Shown here in pieces: positions 2,232-41,836 of a stretch of DNA of 64,000 nt (the first letter of the stretch is position 1; every line of letters starts with the position of its first letter). A program made the position numbers and the translations under genes. The DNA comes from Escherichia coli. Its GTDB lineage: Bacteria; Pseudomonadota; Gammaproteobacteria; Enterobacterales; Enterobacteriaceae. The stretch lies in assembly GCF_003018255.1 (NCBI RefSeq), contig NZ_CP027440.1; one strand, 5' to 3'. The notes below the pieces were generated by a model. It was not told the DNA's origin, searched no databases, and worked only from the letters and a program-made list of their open reading frames with translations.

Positions 2232-3475
2232 TGCGTTTATCTCTCCCTCGCCTGAAAATGCTGCGCCTGCCAGGATTCAGTATTCTGGTCTGGATCTCCA
2301 CGGCGCTAAAGGGCTGGGTGATGGGCTCGCGGGAAAAAGATACCGACAGCCTGATCATGTACGATCGCACCTTACTGTGGCTGACCTTCGGCCTCGCGGC
2401 GATTGGCTTTATCATGGTGACCTCGGCGTCAATGCCCATAGGGCAACGCTTAACCAACGATCCGTTCTTCTTCGCGAAGCGTGATGGCGTCTATCTGATC
2501 CTGGCATTCATTCTGGCGATCATTACGCTGCGTCTGCCGATGGAGTTCTGGCAACGCTACAGTGCCACGATGCTGCTCGGATCTATCATCCTGCTGATGA
2601 TCGTTCTGGTAGTGGGTAGCTCGGTTAAAGGGGCATCGCGTTGGATCGATCTCGGTTTGCTGCGTATCCAGCCTGCGGAGCTGACAAAACTGTCGCTGTT
2701 TTGCTATATCGCCAACTATCTGGTGCGTAAAGGCGACGAAGTACGTAATAACCTGCGCGGCTTCCTGAAACCGATGGGCGTAATTCTGGTGTTGGCAGTG
2801 TTACTGCTGGCACAGCCAGACCTTGGTACGGTGGTGGTGTTGTTTGTGACTACGCTGGCGATGTTGTTCCTGGCGGGAGCGAAATTGTGGCAGTTCATTG
2901 CCATTATCGGTATGGGCATTTCAGCGGTTGTGTTGCTGATCCTCGCCGAACCGTACCGTATCCGCCGTGTTACCGCATTCTGGAATCCGTGGGAAGATCC
3001 CTTTGGCAGCGGCTATCAGTTAACGCAATCGTTGATGGCGTTTGGTCGCGGTGAACTGTGGGGACAAGGTTTAGGTAACTCGGTACAAAAACTGGAGTAT
3101 CTGCCGGAAGCGCACACTGACTTTATTTTCGCCATTATCGGCGAAGAACTGGGGTATGTCGGTGTGGTGCTGGCACTTTTAATGGTATTCTTCGTCGCTT
3201 TTCGCGCGATGTCGATTGGCCGCAAAGCATTAGAAATTGACCACCGTTTTTCCGGTTTTCTCGCCTGTTCTATTGGTATCTGGTTTAGTTTCCAGGCGCT
3301 GGTTAACGTAGGCGCGGCGGCGGGGATGTTACCGACCAAAGGTCTGACATTGCCGCTGATCAGTTACGGTGGTTCGAGCTTACTGATTATGTCGACAGCC
3401 ATCATGATGCTGTTGCGTATTGATTATGAAACGCGTCTGGAGAAAGCGCAGGCGTTTGTACGAGGTTCACGATGA
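2228..3475 (+). CDS. ftsW: Peptidoglycan glycosyltransferase / lipid II flippase FtsW (SEDS family)
   Basis: 415 aa polytopic membrane protein overlapping murD stop; exact start (2228 vs 2231) ambiguous; synteny. Confidence 0.93.
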
Positions 3476-4539
3476 GTGGTCAAGGGAAGCGATTAATGGT
3501 GATGGCAGGCGGAACCGGTGGACATGTATTCCCGGGACTGGCGGTTGCGCACCATCTAATGGCTCAGGGTTGGCAAGTTCGCTGGCTGGGGACTGCCGAC
3601 CGTATGGAAGCGGACTTAGTGCCAAAACATGGCATCGAAATTGATTTCATTCGTATCTCTGGTCTGCGTGGAAAAGGTATAAAAGCACTGATAGCTGCCC
3701 CGCTGCGTATCTTCAACGCCTGGCGTCAGGCGCGGGCGATTATGAAAGCGTACAAACCTGACGTGGTGCTCGGTATGGGCGGCTACGTATCAGGTCCAGG
3801 TGGTCTGGCCGCGTGGTCGTTAGGTATTCCGGTTGTGCTTCATGAACAAAACGGTATTGCGGGATTAACCAATAAATGGCTGGCGAAGATTGCCACCAAA
3901 GTGATGCAGGCGTTTCCAGGCGCTTTCCCTAATGCGGAAGTGGTGGGTAACCCGGTGCGTACCGATGTGCTGGCGCTGCCGTTGCCGCAGCAACGTTTGG
4001 CTGGACGTGAAGGTCCGGTTCGTGTGTTGGTAGTGGGTGGTTCCCAGGGCGCACGCATTCTTAACCAGACAATGCCGCAGGTTGCTGCGAAACTGGGTGA
4101 TTCAGTCACTATCTGGCATCAGAGCGGTAAAGGTTCGCAACAATCCGTTGAACAGGCGTATGCCGAAGCGGGGCAACCGCAGCATAAAGTGACGGAATTT
4201 ATTGATGATATGGCGGCGGCGTATGCGTGGGCGGATGTCGTCGTTTGCCGCTCCGGTGCGTTAACGGTGAGTGAAATCGCCGCGGCAGGACTACCGGCGT
4301 TGTTTGTGCCGTTTCAACATAAAGACCGCCAGCAATACTGGAATGCGCTACCGCTGGAAAAAGCGGGCGCAGCCAAAATTATCGAGCAGCCACAGCTTAG
4401 CGTGGATGCTGTCGCCAACACCCTGGCCGGGTGGTCGCGAGAAACCTTATTAACCATGGCAGAACGCGCCCGCGCCGCATCCATTCCGGATGCCACCGAG
4501 CGAGTGGCAAATGAAGTGAGCCGGGCTGCCCGGGCGTAA
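3472..4539 (+). CDS. murG: UDP-GlcNAc:lipid I N-acetylglucosaminyltransferase MurG
   Basis: 355 aa, [27 protein letters not shown]-terminus; 4-bp overlap with ftsW. Confidence 0.96.
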
Positions 4540-4592: not shown

Positions 4593-6981
<2,389 letters not shown>

Positions 6982-6982
6982 T

Positions 6983-7813
6983 ATGTCGCAGGCTGCTCTG
7001 AACACGCGAAACAGCGAAGAAGAGGTTTCTTCTCGCCGCAATAATGGAACGCGTCTGGCGGGGATCCTTTTCCTGCTGACCGTTTTAACGACAGTGTTGG
7101 TGAGCGGCTGGGTCGTGTTGGGCTGGATGGAAGATGCGCAACGCCTGCCGCTCTCAAAGCTGGTGTTGACCGGTGAACGCCATTACACGCGTAATGACGA
7201 TATCCGGCAGTCGATCCTGGCATTGGGTGAGCCAGGTACCTTTATGACCCAGGATGTCAACATCATCCAGACGCAAATAGAACAACGCCTGCCGTGGATT
7301 AAGCAGGTGAGCGTCAGAAAGCAGTGGCCTGATGAATTGAAGATTCATCTGGTTGAATATGTGCCGATTGCGCGGTGGAATGATCAACATATGGTAGACG
7401 CGGAAGGAAACACTTTCAGCGTGCCGCCAGATCGCACCAGCAAGCAGGTGCTTCCAATGCTGTATGGCCCGGAAGGCAGCGCCAATGAAGTGTTGCAGGG
7501 CTATCGCGAAATGGGGCAGATGCTGGCAAAGGACAGATTTACTCTGAAGGAAGCGGCGATGACCGCGCGGCGTTCCTGGCAGTTGACGCTGAATAACGAT
7601 ATTAAGCTCAATCTTGGCCGGGGCGATACGATGAAACGTTTGGCTCGCTTTGTAGAACTTTATCCGGTTTTACAGCAGCAGGCGCAAACCGATGGCAAAC
7701 GGATTAGCTACGTTGATTTGCGTTATGACTCTGGAGCGGCAGTAGGCTGGGCGCCCTTGCCGCCAGAGGAATCTACTCAGCAACAAAATCAGGCACAGGC
7801 AGAACAACAATGA
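6983..7813 (+). CDS. ftsQ: Cell division protein FtsQ
   Basis: 276 aa, single TM ([24 protein letters not shown]), synteny between ddlB and ftsA. Confidence 0.95.
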
Positions 7814-9072
7814 TTAAGGCGACGGACAGAAAACTGGTAGTAGGACTGGAGATTGGTACCGCGAAGGTTGCCGCTTTAGTAGGGGAAGTTCTGCCCGACG
7901 GTATGGTCAATATCATTGGCGTGGGCAGCTGCCCGTCGCGTGGTATGGATAAAGGCGGGGTGAACGACCTCGAATCCGTGGTCAAGTGCGTACAGCGCGC
8001 CATTGACCAGGCAGAATTGATGGCAGATTGTCAGATCTCTTCGGTATATCTGGCGCTTTCTGGTAAGCACATCAGCTGCCAGAATGAAATTGGTATGGTG
8101 CCTATTTCTGAAGAAGAAGTGACGCAAGAAGATGTGGAAAACGTTGTCCATACCGCGAAATCGGTGCGTGTGCGCGATGAACACCGTGTGCTGCATGTGA
8201 TCCCGCAAGAGTATGCGATTGACTATCAGGAAGGGATCAAGAATCCGGTAGGACTTTCGGGCGTGCGGATGCAGGCAAAAGTGCACCTGATCACATGTCA
8301 CAACGATATGGCGAAAAACATCGTCAAAGCGGTTGAACGTTGTGGGCTGAAAGTTGACCAACTGATATTTGCCGGACTGGCATCAAGTTATTCGGTATTG
8401 ACGGAAGATGAACGTGAACTGGGTGTCTGCGTCGTCGATATCGGTGGTGGTACAATGGATATCGCCGTTTATACCGGTGGGGCATTGCGCCACACTAAGG
8501 TAATTCCTTATGCTGGCAATGTCGTGACCAGTGATATCGCTTACGCCTTTGGCACGCCGCCAAGCGACGCCGAAGCGATTAAAGTTCGCCACGGTTGTGC
8601 GCTGGGTTCCATCGTTGGAAAAGATGAGAGCGTGGAAGTGCCGAGCGTAGGCGGTCGTCCGCCGCGGAGTCTGCAACGTCAGACCCTGGCAGAGGTGATC
8701 GAGCCGCGCTATACCGAGCTGCTCAACCTGGTCAACGAAGAGATATTGCAGTTGCAGGAAAAGCTTCGCCAACAAGGGGTTAAACATCACCTGGCGGCAG
8801 GCATTGTATTAACCGGTGGCGCAGCGCAGATTGAAGGTCTTGCAGCCTGTGCTCAGCGCGTGTTTCATACGCAGGTGCGTATCGGCGCGCCGCTGAACAT
8901 TACCGGTTTAACGGATTATGCTCAGGAGCCGTATTATTCGACGGCGGTGGGATTGCTTCATTACGGGAAAGAGTCACATCTTAACGGTGAAGCTGAAGTA
9001 GAAAAACGTGTTACAGCATCAGTTGGCTCGTGGATCAAGCGACTCAATAGTTGGCTGCGAAAAGAGTTTTAA
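7810..9072 (+). CDS. ftsA: Cell division protein FtsA (actin-like ATPase)
   Basis: 420 aa, [35 protein letters not shown] motif; 4-bp overlap with ftsQ. Confidence 0.96.
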
Positions 9073-37126: not shown

Positions 37127-38884
37127 TTACCTTTCCAGTCGCCTTGCTCCGCGCTCAGAGAGACGTTCGCGTACTGCTGACCGTTGCTCGTTATTCAGCC
37201 TGACAGTATGGTCACTGTCGTTTAGACGTTGCGCGCGGCTCTCCTGAACTTTCTCCCGAAAAACCTGACGTTGCTCAGGTGATGCTGATTGAACACGCTG
37301 GCGGGCGTTATCACGTTGCTGTTGATTCAGTGGGCGCTGCTGTACTTTTTCCTTAAACACCTGGCGCTGTTCGGGAGTTGCAGACTGAATGCGCTCACGC
37401 GCTGCCTCTCTTCGCTGCTGGATCTGCGGGTTAGTCTGCATTTTCTCGCGGACTGCCTGGCGCTGCTCAGGAGAGGCCGACTGATAACGCTGACGAGCGG
37501 CGTCCTTTTGTTGCTGGGTCAGTGGTTGGCGACGGCTGAAGTCGCGGAAGTCGTCATAGCTCCCATAGTTTTCAGCTTCATTAAACCGCTGTGCCGCTGC
37601 CTGACGTTGGGTATCTCGTGTAATGACTGGTGCGCTGTGTGTTCGTTGCTGAAACTGACTTGCTGCCGCCTGACGCTGGCTGTCGCGTGTTGGAGCAGGT
37701 AGCTGCGTGGCGCTCATTCCGCCGTTGACATCGGTTTGATGAAACCGCTTTGCCATATCCTGATCATGATAGGGCACACCATTACGGTAGTTTGGATTGT
37801 GCCGCCATGCCATATTCTTATCAGTAAGATGTTCACCGGTGATACGGTTGAAATTGTTGACGTCGATATTGATGTTGTCGCCATTGTGTTGCCAGCCATT
37901 ACCATCACGATGACCGCCATCGTGATGGTGATAATCATCATCGTCATGATGATGATGGTCATGATCGTCGTCATCCCAGTCGATGCTGCTGAATAGCGCG
38001 TACGTGGTAGCAACGCCCATGCTATAGCCGAATCCGCGCACAAAGCTGTCAACAAACGGTTCTCCGGCTGGCGGCGGCAGATAAACCGGCGGATACGCAG
38101 TATTGGCCCAGTTCCCGTAAACCACGGTTGGGTTGTAGTTGGGAATATAGACCACATCAGGATTGGTGGGTTCAATGGAAATGACGGTTGTTGCAGGCTC
38201 TGTAATGACAGGGTTGGCAGTTGAAACGGTATTGGATGGTATGACGGGAGCCGTGACTGTCTGTTTTACCGGTACAGCTTTCTTCGTTGTGGTAATAACT
38301 TTCTGTTCAGTTGATGACTTCAGCGAGCCGGTTTGTTGCGCCAGTTGCCGCAATCGCTGTACCGAGTCCATCACCTCCTGCGGCTGCGCCAGAAAAGCAT
38401 CGCCCAGGTTTTGCACCCATTGCGGGTTTTCGCCCATCAATGCCATCAACTGTGGAAAGGCCACCAGTGATTTGACGCTGGCGTCCCAGGGCTGGTCAGA
38501 TACCGCCTGAATAGCAGCATCGCCTTGTTTAAGTGGATTATCGTGCGACCATTGCACTGCTTGAGCAACGTTTGCCGGATAGGTTGATGCCATTAACACT
38601 TGTGAAAGCAGAGAGTCGGGGTATAGCGCGACAGGTGCAACCCATTGATCTATTTGCGCAGTGCTGAATGCGGATTTGACGACGGCAGGTGTTACAGGAG
38701 GCACGGAAACCGTTGCAGGAAGCGTAACTGCGGAGATGTCAGGCGCAGCCAGTTGTGTCGATTGCGGTTCCACAGGCGCTTCCACTGTGCGGCTTTTTAT
38801 ATATAGCCCGGTAGAGGCGGCACAAAGCCCGGCACTGCAAATTAGCGCCAGCACATGGGGTTTAAACGGCAAAGTCATTTTCAT
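37127..38884 (-). CDS. yacH: YacH (DUF3300-type exported protein with His/Asp-rich and Gln/Arg-rich repeat regions)
   Basis: 585 aa, signal peptide MKMTLPFKPHVLALICSAGLCAAS; DDDDHDHHHHDDDDYHHHDGGH tract; three QSASPEQRQVF.EKVQ repeats; synteny between lpd and acnB. Confidence 0.85.
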   Translation of the reverse strand: MKMTLPFKPHVLALICSAGLCAASTGLYIKSRTVEAPVEPQSTQLAAPDISAVTLPATVSVPPVTPAVVKSAFSTAQIDQWVAPVALYPDSLLSQVLMASTYPANVAQAVQWSHDNPLKQGDAAIQAVSDQPWDASVKSLVAFPQLMALMGENPQWVQNLGDAFLAQPQEVMDSVQRLRQLAQQTGSLKSSTEQKVITTTKKAVPVKQTVTAPVIPSNTVSTANPVITEPATTVISIEPTNPDVVYIPNYNPTVVYGNWANTAYPPVYLPPPAGEPFVDSFVRGFGYSMGVATTYALFSSIDWDDDDHDHHHHDDDDYHHHDGGHRDGNGWQHNGDNINIDVNNFNRITGEHLTDKNMAWRHNPNYRNGVPYHDQDMAKRFHQTDVNGGMSATQLPAPTRDSQRQAAASQFQQRTHSAPVITRDTQRQAAAQRFNEAENYGSYDDFRDFSRRQPLTQQQKDAARQRYQSASPEQRQAVREKMQTNPQIQQRREAARERIQSATPEQRQVFKEKVQQRPLNQQQRDNARQRVQSASPEQRQVFREKVQESRAQRLNDSDHTVRLNNEQRSAVRERLSERGARRLER

Positions 38885-39238
38885 AATTCGGATCTCAAGG
38901 AAATCGCAATGGTCGGCGAACTGCCACCCGCAGGTGCTGTGAATCCGAGTATAAAGAGGCGGTAGTTTAAATTTTGACTAATCTTGGGATTCGTTGAGAA
39001 AGGTGATTATCACCATGCGAATTAACGAAGTTTTTACGGAGGGAAACAATCTCTAGACCATCCTTAACGATTCAGCCACTTTTTTATGTTGCTTTTTTGT
39101 AAACAGATTAACACATCGTCAAAATCCTGCTATTCTGCCCGTTGCGGTACTGGGCATTTACCCTACAAACTGCTGTCTCACAGGAGCGTGAAGAGAATCG
39201 CCTGCCGCACTATGACAATGAGAGCGAGGAGAACCGTC

Positions 39239-41836
39239 GTGCTAGAAGAATACCGTAAGCACGTAGCTGAGCGTGCCGCTGAGGGGATTGCGCCCAAACC
39301 CCTGGATGCAAACCAAATGGCCGCGCTTGTAGAGCTGCTGAAAAACCCGCCCGCGGGCGAAGAAGAATTCCTGTTAGATCTGTTAACCAACCGTGTTCCC
39401 CCAGGCGTCGATGAAGCCGCCTATGTAAAAGCAGGCTTCCTGGCTGCTATCGCTAAAGGCGAAGCCAAATCCCCTCTGCTGACTCCGGAAAAAGCCATCG
39501 AACTGCTGGGCACCATGCAGGGTGGTTACAACATTCATCCGCTGATCGACGCGCTGGATGATGCCAAACTGGCACCGATCGCTGCCAAAGCACTTTCTCA
39601 CACGCTGCTGATGTTCGATAACTTCTATGACGTAGAAGAGAAAGCGAAAGCAGGCAACGAATATGCGAAGCAGGTAATGCAGTCCTGGGCGGATGCCGAA
39701 TGGTTCCTGAATCGCCCGGCGCTGGCTGAAAAACTGACCGTTACCGTCTTCAAAGTCACAGGCGAAACCAACACCGATGACCTCTCTCCGGCACCGGATG
39801 CGTGGTCACGCCCGGATATCCCACTGCACGCGCTGGCGATGCTGAAAAACGCCCGTGAAGGTATTGAGCCAGATCAGCCAGGCGTTGTTGGTCCGATTAA
39901 GCAAATCGAAGCTCTGCAACAGAAAGGTTTCCCACTGGCGTACGTCGGTGACGTTGTGGGTACGGGGTCATCGCGTAAATCCGCCACTAACTCCGTTCTG
40001 TGGTTTATGGGCGATGATATTCCACATGTGCCGAACAAACGCGGCGGTGGTTTGTGCCTCGGCGGTAAAATTGCACCCATCTTCTTTAACACGATGGAAG
40101 ACGCGGGTGCGCTGCCAATCGAAGTCGACGTCTCTAACCTGAACATGGGCGACGTAATTGACGTTTACCCGTACAAAGGTGAAGTGCGTAACCACGAAAC
40201 CGGCGAACTGCTGGCGACCTTCGAACTGAAAACCGACGTGCTGATTGATGAAGTGCGTGCTGGCGGCCGTATTCCGCTGATTATTGGGCGTGGCCTGACC
40301 ACCAAAGCGCGTGAAGCACTTGGCCTGCCGCACAGCGATGTGTTCCGTCAGGCGAAAGATGTCGCTGAGAGCGATCGCGGCTTCTCGCTGGCGCAGAAAA
40401 TGGTAGGCCGTGCCTGTGGCGTGAAAGGCATTCGTCCGGGCGCGTACTGTGAACCGAAAATGACTTCTGTAGGTTCCCAGGACACCACCGGCCCGATGAC
40501 CCGTGATGAACTGAAAGACCTGGCGTGCCTGGGCTTCTCGGCTGACCTGGTGATGCAGTCTTTCTGCCACACCGCGGCGTATCCGAAACCAGTTGACGTT
40601 AACACGCACCACACGCTGCCGGACTTCATTATGAACCGTGGCGGTGTGTCGCTGCGTCCGGGTGACGGCGTAATCCACTCCTGGCTGAACCGTATGCTGC
40701 TGCCGGATACTGTCGGTACCGGTGGTGACTCCCATACCCGTTTCCCGATCGGTATCTCTTTCCCGGCGGGTTCTGGTCTGGTGGCATTTGCAGCCGCAAC
40801 AGGCGTAATGCCGCTGGATATGCCAGAATCCGTTCTGGTGCGCTTCAAAGGCAAAATGCAGCCGGGTATCACCCTGCGCGATCTGGTACACGCGATCCCG
40901 CTGTATGCAATCAAACAAGGTCTGCTGACCGTTGAGAAGAAAGGTAAGAAAAACATCTTCTCTGGCCGCATTCTGGAAATTGAAGGTCTGCCGGATCTGA
41001 AAGTTGAGCAGGCATTTGAGCTGACCGATGCGTCTGCCGAGCGTTCTGCTGCCGGTTGTACCATCAAGCTGAACAAAGAACCGATCATTGAATACCTGAA
41101 CTCTAACATCGTCCTGTTGAAGTGGATGATCGCGGAAGGTTACGGCGATCGTCGTACCCTGGAGCGTCGTATTCAGGGCATGGAAAAATGGCTGGCGAAT
41201 CCTGAGCTGCTGGAAGCCGATGCAGATGCGGAATACGCGGCAGTGATCGACATCGATCTGGCGGATATCAAAGAGCCAATCCTCTGTGCACCGAATGACC
41301 CGGACGACGCACGTCCGCTGTCTGCGGTACAGGGCGAGAAGATCGACGAAGTATTTATCGGTTCTTGCATGACTAACATCGGTCACTTCCGTGCTGCTGG
41401 TAAACTGCTGGATGCGCACAAAGGTCAGTTGCCGACCCGCCTGTGGGTGGCACCGCCAACGCGTATGGACGCTGCGCAGCTGACCGAAGAAGGCTACTAC
41501 AGCGTCTTCGGTAAGAGTGGTGCTCGTATCGAGATCCCTGGCTGTTCCCTGTGTATGGGTAACCAGGCGCGTGTAGCAGACGGTGCGACGGTGGTTTCCA
41601 CCTCTACCCGTAACTTCCCGAACCGTTTGGGTACTGGCGCGAATGTCTTCCTGGCTTCTGCGGAACTGGCTGCTGTTGCGGCGCTGATTGGCAAACTGCC
41701 GACGCCGGAAGAGTACCAGACCTACGTGGCGCAGGTAGATAAAACAGCCGTTGATACTTACCGTTATCTGAACTTCGACCAGCTTTCTCAGTACACCGAA
41801 AAAGCGGACGGGGTGATTTTCCAGACTGCGGTTTAA
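39239..41836 (+). CDS. acnB: Aconitate hydratase B / 2-methylisocitrate dehydratase AcnB, GTG start
   Basis: 865 codons from GTG 39239 ([34 protein letters not shown]); ORF track start 39086 is an upstream extension. Confidence 0.96.

What the first reader, a model, noticed from the sequence alone, without database searches (positions are those of the whole stretch)
37700..38180. YacH contains an Asp/His homopolymeric tract and tandem Gln/Arg-rich repeats
Seen in sequence: DDDDHDHHHHDDDDYHHHDGGH and three repeats of ...ARQR.QSASPEQRQVF.EKVQ... at the C-terminus. Such tracts are slippage-prone and suggest metal binding; the protein length (585 aa) may differ from other strains through repeat copy number.
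Basis: seen in the sequence. Interest (0 to 1): 0.3.

Follow-up and report, generated by a model that had tools for sequence, protein, structure and literature searches.

The report
Length-variable repeats in E. coli YacH

Summary
The ORF at 37127-38884 (-) is E. coli yacH. It is 585 aa, belongs to Pfam DUF3300, and lies between lpdA and acnB.

**Observation.** The Asp/His tract DDDDHDHHHHDDDDYHHHDGGH is real (aa 304-325, nt 37910-37975). The three 32-aa Gln/Arg-rich repeats are also real, but they lie at nt 37247-37534, outside the stated coordinates.

**Length prediction.** It holds.
- Alleles carry 2, 3, 4 or 5 units (553, 585, 617 and 648 aa).
- In systematic samples of 5,426 complete genomes, about 47% have 3 units, about 50% have 4 and about 2% have 2.
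- About 17% differ in Asp/His tract length (-13, -1, +2, +8 aa).
- One nearly identical allele backbone carries 2 to 5 units, so units have been gained and lost repeatedly.

**What the parts are.**
- The Asp/His tract is an Enterobacteriaceae-specific expansion of a loop that is four residues long in most DUF3300 proteins. The model shows it disordered.
- It is under strong purifying selection (dN/dS 0.02-0.10).
- Each repeat unit is modelled as a helical hairpin with net charge +4.

**Not shown.** Metal binding remains an inference, and no solved structure resembles the protein.

**Side finding.** Escherichia lacks the DUF2950 gene that follows yacH homologues in every other genus examined.

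Interest is low.

The parts
37127..38884 (-). yacH coding sequence, 585 aa plus stop codon
   Evidence: ORF list. Pfam DUF3300, E 2e-78, 263 bits against a cut-off of 25. 99.9% identical to an annotated yacH, and present in 5425 of 5426 complete E. coli genomes.
38813..38884 (-). N-terminal export signal, about aa 1-24: MKMTLPFKPH, then the hydrophobic stretch VLALICSAGLCAAS
   Evidence: This is the only segment hydrophobic enough for a signal peptide or membrane anchor (19-residue Kyte-Doolittle mean 1.91 at aa 11-29; the next candidate, aa 281-299, scores 0.78). The cleavage site is inferred by eye. The family is reported to carry signal peptides (PMC4653623), and homologue P0129 has a lipobox-like LVVGC.
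37886..38662 (-). DUF3300 domain, aa 75-333
   Evidence: hmmscan envelope 75-333. In the AlphaFold2 model aa 70-200 is helical with pLDDT 95-98 and aa 230-270 has pLDDT about 94. Near-invariant family residues include W133, G161, Q176, R179, W303, H362 and R367.
37910..37975 (-). Asp/His-rich tract DDDDHDHHHHDDDDYHHHDGGH, aa 304-325. It is a low-complexity expansion of the loop between the near-invariant W303 and the NINIDVNNFNR strand.
   Evidence: Coordinates and codons. Tandem Repeats Finder reports periods of 9, 15 and 24 nt. The loop is 4-5 residues in most family members and 24-34 in the YacH clade. pLDDT is below 50. dN/dS is 0.02-0.10. Length variants.
37553..37690 (-). Two tandem 23-aa units (TRDSQRQAAASQFQQRTHSAPVI / TRDTQRQAAAQRFNEAENYGSYD), aa 399-444
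   Evidence: Direct repeat D4 with 69-nt spacing. 43% amino-acid identity. One unit is deleted in allele L003 (562 aa).
37247..37534 (-). Array of three 32-aa (96-nt) Gln/Arg-rich units, aa 451-546. Each is modelled as a helix, an S-A-S-P-E-Q turn, and a second helix, with net charge +4 per unit.
   Evidence: Direct repeat D1. Repeat register. Shuffle test. Model helices at 457-468/472-483, 486-500/504-515 and 521-532/536-575, pLDDT about 80. Net charge +12 over 96 aa. Copy number 2-5 among alleles.
37130..37246 (-). C-terminal end, aa 547-585. It contains one degenerate motif, LNNEQRSAVRERL, that resembles the SPEQRQAVREKM core of the units.
   Evidence: Read from the translation. It is not in register with the 32-aa units (3-9% identity at a 32-residue offset).

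Best explanation
**Shown**
- This is E. coli yacH. It encodes a DUF3300-family protein whose N-terminus looks like an export signal.
- The gene carries two kinds of length-variable coding repeat.
- The first is the Asp/His tract. It is an expansion, specific to Enterobacteriaceae, of a turn that is four to five residues long in most of the family. The turn sits between a near-invariant Trp and a conserved alternating D/N-hydrophobic strand. The model shows the tract as disordered.
- The tract changes length by small indels between short imperfect codon repeats; the E. coli variants I saw are in frame, and a published Salmonella isolate has an 8-bp frameshifting deletion in the orthologous tract. 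Its amino-acid content is kept by purifying selection.
- The second is the C-terminal array of 96-nt units. Each unit encodes a predicted helical hairpin made of two 16-residue helices with S/T-P-E-Q-type starts, and adds +4 net charge.
- Units are gained and lost repeatedly. E. coli strains carry 2 to 5 units, and 3 and 4 are about equally common.

**Inferred**
- The mutational mechanism is replication slippage or unequal recombination between neighbouring 96-nt units (about 0.85).
- The Asp/His loop binds divalent metal ions (Zn, Ni or Cu) or acts as a pH- or polycation-responsive acidic patch in the periplasm (about 0.4 for metal specifically).
- The basic helical tail is a spacer or binding arm of adjustable length and charge (about 0.3).

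The biochemical function of YacH and of DUF3300 remains unknown.
For: **Identity and context.**

**Copy-number series.**
- Alleles have 2 units (L002, 553 aa), 3 (the window, 585 aa), 4 (K-12 type, 617 aa) and 5 (P0001, 648 aa).
- In a systematic sample of 60 of 5,425 genomes, 28 have 3 units and 12 have 4 by measured span. Another 18 give split alignments like known 4-unit K-12 strains, and 1 has 2 units.
- A 96-nt junction probe gives 8,835 places in 5,392 genomes, with a median of 2 per genome.
- Alleles L002, L003, P0047 and P0001 differ by only 1-5 substitutions over 450 aa and by none in the C-terminal end, yet carry 2, 3, 4 and 5 units. The changes are therefore recurrent and recent.

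**Asp/His tract.**
- Variants are -13, -1, +2 and +8 aa, all inside the tract.
- 10 of 60 sampled genomes differ in length there.
- A Salmonella isolate has an 8-bp deletion in the same tract (PMC10048834).
- The loop is 4-5 residues in about 95 of 107 aligned family members and 24-34 residues in the YacH clade.
- A tract of 9-31 aa is present in all 28 Enterobacteriaceae loci examined.

**Selection.** dN/dS is 0.07-0.17 for the whole gene. It is 0.02-0.10 in the tract, despite dS of 0.34-1.46, and 0.06-0.16 in the array.

**Structure and charge.** The model shows a disordered tract and helical-hairpin units. Net charge is -11 for the tract region, +12 for the array and +15 for the tail.

**Envelope link.** yacH is reported as CpxR-regulated and repressed by protamine and cecropin A, and its deletion raises protamine survival (PMC9600279).
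Against: - The only similarity to metal-binding proteins is compositional (a ZnuA His-rich loop at E = 10, and His/FLAG tags).
- The gene is dispensable. A viable deletion strain has been studied, one strain has an IS1 insertion and one has a frameshifted copy.
- Copy-number frequencies come from systematic samples of 40-60 rows, not from a full census.
- 18 of the 60 rows were assigned to 4 units by inference from split alignments.
- The junction probe does not map one-to-one onto total unit number. L044 gives 3 places but has 4 units, and L006 has 3 units of which two are the probe type.
Confidence: 0.8

Rival explanations
1. Neutral drift in a decaying orphan gene. Escherichia lost the DUF2950 partner of the ancestral two-gene module, YacH has no remaining role, and the repeat and tract length changes are unconstrained noise on the way to loss of the gene.
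For: - DUF2950 lies directly downstream of the yacH homologue in all 23 non-Escherichia loci and in 3 metagenomic loci. It is absent from all 6 Escherichia loci and from the window.
- No full-length DNA homologue of it was found in 5,426 E. coli genomes.
- Inactivated copies exist: an IS1 insertion (L017) and a frameshift (L004).
- The deletion mutant survives protamine better than wild type.
Against: - dN/dS is 0.07-0.17 over the whole gene, and equally low in the tract and the array.
- 5,415 of 5,426 genomes keep at least 80% of the gene.
- Apart from that frameshift and the IS1 insertion, the length variants seen are in frame.
- The tract's composition is conserved across genera that are only about 50% identical.
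Confidence: 0.1
2. Contingency locus. The repeats are an evolved hypermutable switch that varies an exposed envelope protein to escape phage, host immunity or antimicrobial peptides.
For: - Units are gained and lost repeatedly on one allele backbone.
- 3-unit and 4-unit alleles are both common.
- The protein appears to be exported.
- There is a published link to cationic-peptide survival.
- Each unit changes the tail's net charge by +4.
Against: - The units are 96 nt long and only 62-84% identical, so changes should be rare.
- Unit lengths are multiples of three, so there is no on/off switching.
- No evidence places YacH on the cell surface.
- No within-strain variation was examined.
Confidence: 0.1
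3. The Asp/His loop is not a metal site but an acidic, His-titratable patch. It either binds polycations such as protamine, other cationic peptides or polyamines, or folds back onto the protein's own basic tail in a pH-dependent way.
For: - The tract region has net charge -11 with 10 His, and the tail has +15.
- The yacH deletion increases protamine survival, and yacH is repressed by protamine and cecropin A (PMC9600279).
- The tract is modelled as disordered.
Against: No direct evidence. The phenotype comes from a single study of one deletion strain. Runs of His interleaved with Asp are also the typical composition of metal-binding loops (my own knowledge, not tested here).
Confidence: 0.2
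4. The C-terminal SPEQRQ units are diverged LTXXQ modules of the CpxP/Spy/ZraP periplasmic chaperone kind.
For: - The motif S-P-E-Q-R-Q-x-F/V-R-E-K at the start of a helix resembles the LTPEQ motif of that family (my recollection, so a lead only).
- yacH is reported as Cpx-regulated.
- The units are modelled as helical hairpins.
Against: - hmmscan of the tail at E up to 10 lists no LTXXQ or related family. The best hit is DUF3106 at E 0.012, 16.5 bits against a cut-off of 24.3.
- A profile of 13 units searched against all PDB sequences finds no Spy, CpxP or ZraP, and neither does phmmer with the tail.
- Structure searches return only generic helical matches.
Confidence: 0.07

Closest known systems
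DUF3300 (Pfam PF11737) proteins, normally encoded just upstream of a DUF2950 (PF11453) gene
   Same: - Full-length match to the family model.
- N-terminal export signal, a helical N-domain, the W-turn-DIDID/NINVN motif, and a WxHxPxHRxGVxYRD motif.
- A basic, repeat-rich C-terminal tail is common in the family: P0129 and P0209 carry their own unrelated tandem repeats.
   Different: - The window and all Escherichia loci lack the DUF2950 partner.
- The turn after the near-invariant Trp is expanded from 4-5 residues to about 33, rich in Asp and His.
- The 32-aa SPEQRQ array is found at 3-4 copies only in Escherichia. Other genera have 16-17-aa units.
- No member of the family has a known function.
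His/Asp-rich flexible loops and tails of metal-handling proteins, such as the His-rich loop of periplasmic ZnuA (named from my own knowledge)
   Same: A disordered stretch of interleaved His and Asp in a protein that appears to be exported. The ZnuA loop is the only natural protein segment that the PDB sequence search aligned to the tract (7rcj_A, query 303-325, E = 10).
   Different: That match is not significant and reflects composition only. YacH has no recognisable metal-transport or metallochaperone domain, and no binding data exist.
Intragenic minisatellites (coding VNTRs) in bacterial envelope proteins
   Same: Head-to-tail units whose length is a multiple of three, in-frame gain and loss, and copy number that differs among strains and recurs on one backbone.
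   Different: - The units are fairly diverged (62-84% nucleotide identity) and the range is narrow (2-5).
- It is not the 96-bp VNTR ms11 of the Shigella/E. coli MLVA scheme. Neither ms11 primer matches the window, even allowing 3 mismatches.
DUF3106 (PF11304) and the LTXXQ/CpxP-Spy family
   Same: Repeated short helices that start with an S/T-P-E-Q-R-like motif. The hit to DUF3106 is weak (E 0.012).
   Different: The DUF3106 score is below the Pfam cut-off. LTXXQ-family proteins were not detected by hmmscan, phmmer or a unit profile.

Membership tests
DUF3300 (PF11737) | Match to the Pfam model above its gathering score | tested here: met
   263.3 bits against a cut-off of 25, E 2.2e-78. Protein residues 75-333 match profile positions 2-227 of 227.
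DUF3300-DUF2950 two-gene module | A DUF2950 gene immediately downstream on the same strand | tested here: not met
   - In the window the yacH stop codon (37127) lies 70 nt from the stop codon of the convergent lpd gene (37056), which leaves no room for another gene.
- tblastn finds DUF2950 in 26 of 26 non-Escherichia loci and in none of 6 Escherichia loci or the window.
- blastn finds no full-length homologue in 5,426 E. coli genomes.
DUF3300-DUF2950 two-gene module | N-terminal signal peptide (exported protein) | tested here: inconclusive
   The N-terminus has a basic stretch followed by a 14-residue hydrophobic core, and it is the only strongly hydrophobic segment. No dedicated signal-peptide predictor was available. 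The family is reported to carry signal peptides.
Coding VNTR / minisatellite | Head-to-tail tandem units | tested here: met
   Three units at an exact 96-nt spacing. 38 of 64 identities at an offset of 32 residues, against 7.5 +/- 2.4 in shuffles.
Coding VNTR / minisatellite | Copy number differs among strains | tested here: met
   Alleles with 2, 3, 4 and 5 units. In the sample about 47% have 3 units, about 50% have 4 and about 2% have 2.
Simple-sequence contingency locus (phase variation) | A perfect short-unit tract (1-8 nt) whose length changes shift the reading frame or alter a promoter | tested here: not met
   The longest perfect run is CAT x4, and the units are 3 nt or 96 nt. The E. 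coli length variants seen are in frame, apart from one frameshifted copy (L004) and one IS1 insertion (L017). One Salmonella isolate is reported with an 8-bp frameshifting deletion in the tract.
His-rich metal-binding segment | A cluster of His, with Asp or Glu, in a flexible exposed segment | tested here: met
   The 22-residue tract aa 304-325 has 10 Asp and 9 His. pLDDT is below 50. The amino acids are conserved, with dN/dS 0.02-0.10.
His-rich metal-binding segment | Measured binding of a metal ion | not testable with these tools
   Needs ITC, ICP-MS or IMAC retention of the native protein or peptide.
LTXXQ / CpxP-Spy-ZraP family | Significant sequence or profile match to the family | tested here: not met
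   No such family appears in hmmscan of the tail at E up to 10. No Spy, CpxP or ZraP chain is found by phmmer or by a profile of 13 units against the PDB.
DUF3106 (PF11304) | Match above the gathering score | tested here: not met
   16.5 bits against a cut-off of 24.3, E 0.012.

The most novel reading that the evidence does not exclude
After Escherichia lost DUF2950, the otherwise universal partner of DUF3300, YacH was kept under purifying selection as a stand-alone periplasmic protein. In this reading an acidic His/Asp loop senses or binds metal ions or polycations, and a basic helical tail is tuned in steps of +4 charge by gain and loss of units. The roughly 50:50 split between 3-unit and 4-unit alleles would then be maintained by selection, for example through different sensitivity to host cationic antimicrobial peptides.
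Probability: 0.08. Interest if true: 0.5.

Novelty: new member of a known kind. Interest (0 to 1): 0.22.

Why it matters
**Practical use.** Automated annotation and pan-genome clustering will split yacH into many length classes: I saw 553, 562, 585, 587, 593, 604, 612, 617, 619, 625, 634, 648 and 662 aa. The 96-nt array could also serve as a typing marker.

**Biological use.** YacH is one of E. coli's uncharacterised genes, and DUF3300/DUF2950 is a widespread exported gene pair with no known function. Three results give concrete handles for experiments:
- The Asp/His tract is a selected, lineage-specific expansion of a conserved loop.
- The tail changes in charge steps of +4.
- Escherichia has lost the partner gene.

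Natural alleles with 2 to 5 units on one backbone form a ready-made allelic series for such experiments. None of this would surprise a specialist.

Tried and rejected
1. **LTXXQ/CpxP/Spy-like modules.** I tested whether the SPEQRQ units belong to this family. hmmscan, phmmer and a unit profile against the PDB give no support. The only hit is a sub-threshold one to DUF3106.
3. **MLVA locus ms11.** I tested whether the 96-nt array is this published 96-bp VNTR. Neither primer matches the window with up to 3 mismatches, so it is a different locus.
4. **Second membrane-spanning segment.** I considered aa 281-299 (GFGYSMGVATTYALFSS), which would put the tail in the cytoplasm. Its hydropathy is only 0.78 and the model shows strands, not a helix. 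Rejected.
5. **Decaying gene.** Rejected by the dN/dS values.
6. **Full census by junction probe.** The count of probe places does not equal unit number minus two in every allele, because some alleles have homogenised units (L006, L044). I used it only as a consistency check on the span-based samples.
7. **NCBIfam.** No model matches.
Full report
**Observation**

The finding sits in the ORF at window 37127..38884 on the minus strand, 585 aa. It lies between lpd (35599/35632..37056, +) and acnB (39086..41836, +). RefSeq annotates the near-identical gene in other E. coli as yacH, a DUF3300 domain-containing protein, with the same neighbours. Pfam gives one family, DUF3300, over residues 75-333 (E 2e-78). 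NCBIfam gives none.

The tract DDDDHDHHHHDDDDYHHHDGGH is at aa 304-325, nt 37910-37975, within the stated coordinates. 19 of its 22 residues are Asp or His. In the six-frame translation of the 64-kb window, the five richest 22-aa windows on each strand all lie at this locus or read its antisense strand.

The three Gln/Arg-rich repeats are real. They are 32-aa (96-nt) units at aa 451-546, nt 37247-37534, which is outside the finding's coordinates 37700-38180. The units share 53-69% amino-acid and 62-66% nucleotide identity. At an offset of 32 residues, 38 of 64 positions are identical, against 7.5 +/- 2.4 in shuffles (0 of 20,000 reach 38). A further pair of 23-aa units lies at nt 37553-37690.

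**Is length variable among strains?**

Yes. Aligning annotated alleles shows the following:

| Change | Allele | Length (aa) |
|---|---|---|
| 2 units | L002 | 553 |
| 3 units | the window | 585 |
| 4 units | K-12 type, L001/L007 | 617 |
| 5 units, three of them identical | P0001 | 648 |
| one 23-aa unit deleted | L003 | 562 |
| 45-aa duplication | P0002 | 662 |
| 17-aa duplication | P0019 | 634 |
| tract +DH (listed rows include an O25b:H4-ST131 strain) | L005 | 587 |
| tract +HH | P0020 | 587 |
| tract +DHDHHHHD | L006, L043 | 593 |
| tract +DDDDYHHH | P0117 | 625 |
| tract -13 aa | L041 | 604 |

Two further alleles lose a single His from the tract (P0001, L042).

I took systematic samples, at even steps down the ranking, of the 5,425 genomes that carry the gene.
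- For the C-terminal segment (n = 60), 28 have 3 units and 12 have 4 by measured span. Another 18 give split alignments like K-12 strains known to have 4 units. One has 2 units and one is too divergent to score.
- For the tract segment (n = 60), 49 match the window's length. Six are +6 nt, one is -3, one is +24, two are -39 and one is partial.
- A 96-nt probe for the junction of units 1 and 2 gives 8,835 places in 5,392 genomes, with a median of 2 and a maximum of 3. This agrees with 4-unit alleles being about as common as 3-unit ones. The probe count does not map exactly onto unit number, because some alleles have homogenised units.

Alleles L002, L003, P0047 and P0001 differ by 1-5 substitutions in the 450 aa before the array and by none after it, yet carry 2, 3, 4 and 5 units. 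Unit number has therefore changed repeatedly and recently on a single backbone.

A published Salmonella Typhimurium isolate has an 8-bp deletion (GATCATCA, Asp284fs) in the orthologous tract (PMC10048834).

**What the two features are**

A search of 1.84 billion cluster representatives finds 9,474 relatives at E <= 0.001. In an alignment of 107 of them (A1), the family shows a near-invariant Trp (W303 here). This is followed by a short turn and then an alternating strand of the type DIDID/NINVN, and later by WxHxPxHRxGVxYRD.

In most members the turn is 4-5 residues, for example WGGGD, WGHND or WHHGD. In the window and its three closest representatives it is 24-34 residues of Asp, His, Gly and Tyr. 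In 28 Enterobacteriaceae loci from a species-level genome scan, every orthologue has such a tract. It is 9-31 residues long, and both sequence and length differ by genus. The tract is therefore an old, clade-specific low-complexity expansion of a loop inside DUF3300.

The AlphaFold2 model has mean pLDDT 74.
- It shows a confident helical domain (aa 70-200, pLDDT 95-98) and confident strands around aa 230-270.
- The tract has no confident structure (pLDDT below 50).
- Each 32-aa unit is a pair of helices joined at the S-A-S-P-E-Q turn (pLDDT about 80).

Other genera carry 16-17-aa units of the same style: PTAQQQQRRDAAK in Atlantibacter and Citrobacter, and STPEQRQARRENVQQRV four times in one uncultured Enterobacteriaceae genome. 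The 32-aa unit at 3-4 copies is seen only in Escherichia. More distant family members have unrelated tandem repeats in equally basic tails.

By charge, the tract region is -11 with 10 His, each 32-aa unit is +4, and the tail from aa 399 onward is +15. Only the N-terminal segment (aa 11-29) is hydrophobic enough to be a signal peptide or membrane anchor. This fits the family's reported signal peptides (PMC4653623).

**Selection**

I computed Nei-Gojobori estimates between the window allele and seven others: K-12 type, two alleles carrying D/H-tract insertions (L005, L006), one very divergent E. coli allele, two other Escherichia lineages, and E. albertii.
- Whole-gene dN/dS is 0.07-0.17.
- In the Asp/His tract, dN/dS is 0.02-0.10 with dS of 0.34-1.46.
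- In the 32-aa array, dN/dS is 0.06-0.16.

The high nucleotide divergence of yacH is mostly synonymous. Identity to the window over the first 885 nt is 95-99% in 3,912 genomes and 90-95% in 1,435. For lpdA all genomes are at 95% or above. The gene and both repeat regions are kept by purifying selection on the protein. Frequent GAT/GAC and CAT/CAC exchange keeps the DNA of the tract imperfect.

**Function**

Nothing here establishes a biochemical function.
- No solved structure resembles the model.
- PDB sequence searches hit only affinity tags, plus a ZnuA His-rich loop at E = 10.
- Published work reports yacH as CpxR-regulated, up 3.9-fold with NlpE overproduction. It is repressed by protamine and cecropin A, and its deletion improves protamine survival (PMC9600279). 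Expression is lower in a rob deletion (PMC7537768).

My best reading is a periplasmic or envelope protein whose acidic, His-rich, disordered loop binds divalent metal ions. Alternatively the loop could act as a pH- or polycation-responsive patch. The basic helical tail would be a spacer or binding arm of adjustable length. These steps are inferences.

The mutational mechanism is slippage or unequal recombination between 96-nt units and between short codon repeats. It is inferred from the exact unit-sized, in-frame changes.

**Comparison with what is known**

The protein is a member of DUF3300. It does not meet one feature of the usual DUF3300 context: the DUF2950 partner gene is missing. It does not match the LTXXQ/CpxP-Spy family or DUF3106 above threshold. 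The 96-nt array is not the MLVA locus ms11.

The polymorphism is of a familiar kind, a coding minisatellite plus a low-complexity indel tract. I found no paper describing it for yacH in the searchable library. The length difference from K-12 (617 aa) is plain in public annotation.

**Verdict**

The feature is ordinary, so interest is low. The loss of DUF2950 in Escherichia and the loop-expansion origin of the tract are modest additions.

Noticed in passing
window 37057-37126 (yacH-lpd gap); loci L012-L040, L009-L011: A DUF2950 gene lies directly downstream of the yacH homologue in all 23 non-Escherichia loci from the genome scan and in 3 metagenomic loci. It is absent from all 6 Escherichia loci (E. 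coli, E. albertii, E. whittamii and unnamed Escherichia species) and from the window, where yacH abuts the convergent lpd gene. The genus appears to have lost the partner of an otherwise universal gene pair.
   Followed up: yes
L017 (E. coli E69, CP089930.1) about 4632-5400: yacH is interrupted after codon 382 by an insertion whose ORFs read like IS1 InsA and InsB. The intact ORF ends at 392 aa. A second strain, Eco_23-3571 (L004), has a yacH annotated as frameshifted.
   Followed up: partly
L008 (E. coli AST85, NZ_AP043644.1) 2501-4360: This is a very divergent yacH allele of 619 aa, with dS above 2 against the window and only 98 nt matched by megablast. Its N-terminal linker and the region before the repeats both differ, and its acnB protein is a different RefSeq sequence from the one in L001-L004 and L007. 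It may have been imported from a divergent Escherichia lineage.
   Followed up: partly
window 37127-38884 compared with L005/L006: Synonymous divergence between alleles is mosaic. Against L005, dS is 0.07 in the helical domain, 0.39 in the strand region and 0.61 in the tract. This suggests recombination between old allele classes within the gene.
   Followed up: no
window 37057-37126; L006, L013, L014, L016: The yacH-lpd intergenic region varies in length: 70 nt in the window, about 242-249 nt in L006, L013 and L014, and 753 nt in E. albertii (L016). The longer gaps appear by eye to include REP-like palindromes, and the E. albertii gap may hold a small ORF on the opposite strand with a signal-peptide-like start; neither was checked with a tool.
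   Followed up: no
window 37091-37115: The sequence AGCGGC-TAACCAC-GCCGCT, followed by a T run and preceded by an A run, looks like a two-way intrinsic terminator shared by lpd and yacH (read). The consensus scan did not list it.
   Followed up: no
L020 (Salmonella enterica subsp. arizonae) 5097-8319: The DUF2950 gene loses similarity after about residue 218 and is followed by a 793-aa ORF. The 3' 55-65 nt of that query segment match sequences found mainly on E. coli plasmids. This suggests a mobile insertion truncated the gene.
   Followed up: partly
L037 (record titled Chryseobacterium sp. 18061): This contig carries an Enterobacteriaceae-type yacH-DUF2950 pair; the DUF2950 is 86% identical to that of L011, the yacH-acnB locus of the enterobacterial-type orthologue P0121. 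The record is probably mislabelled or contaminated.
   Followed up: no
window 37289-38510, + strand: Several ORFs of 86-153 aa overlap yacH: 37289-37702, 37736-37996 and 38163-38510 on the + strand, and 37714-38175 on the - strand in another frame. They read as low-complexity sequence mirroring the repeats and are very likely not genes.
   Followed up: no
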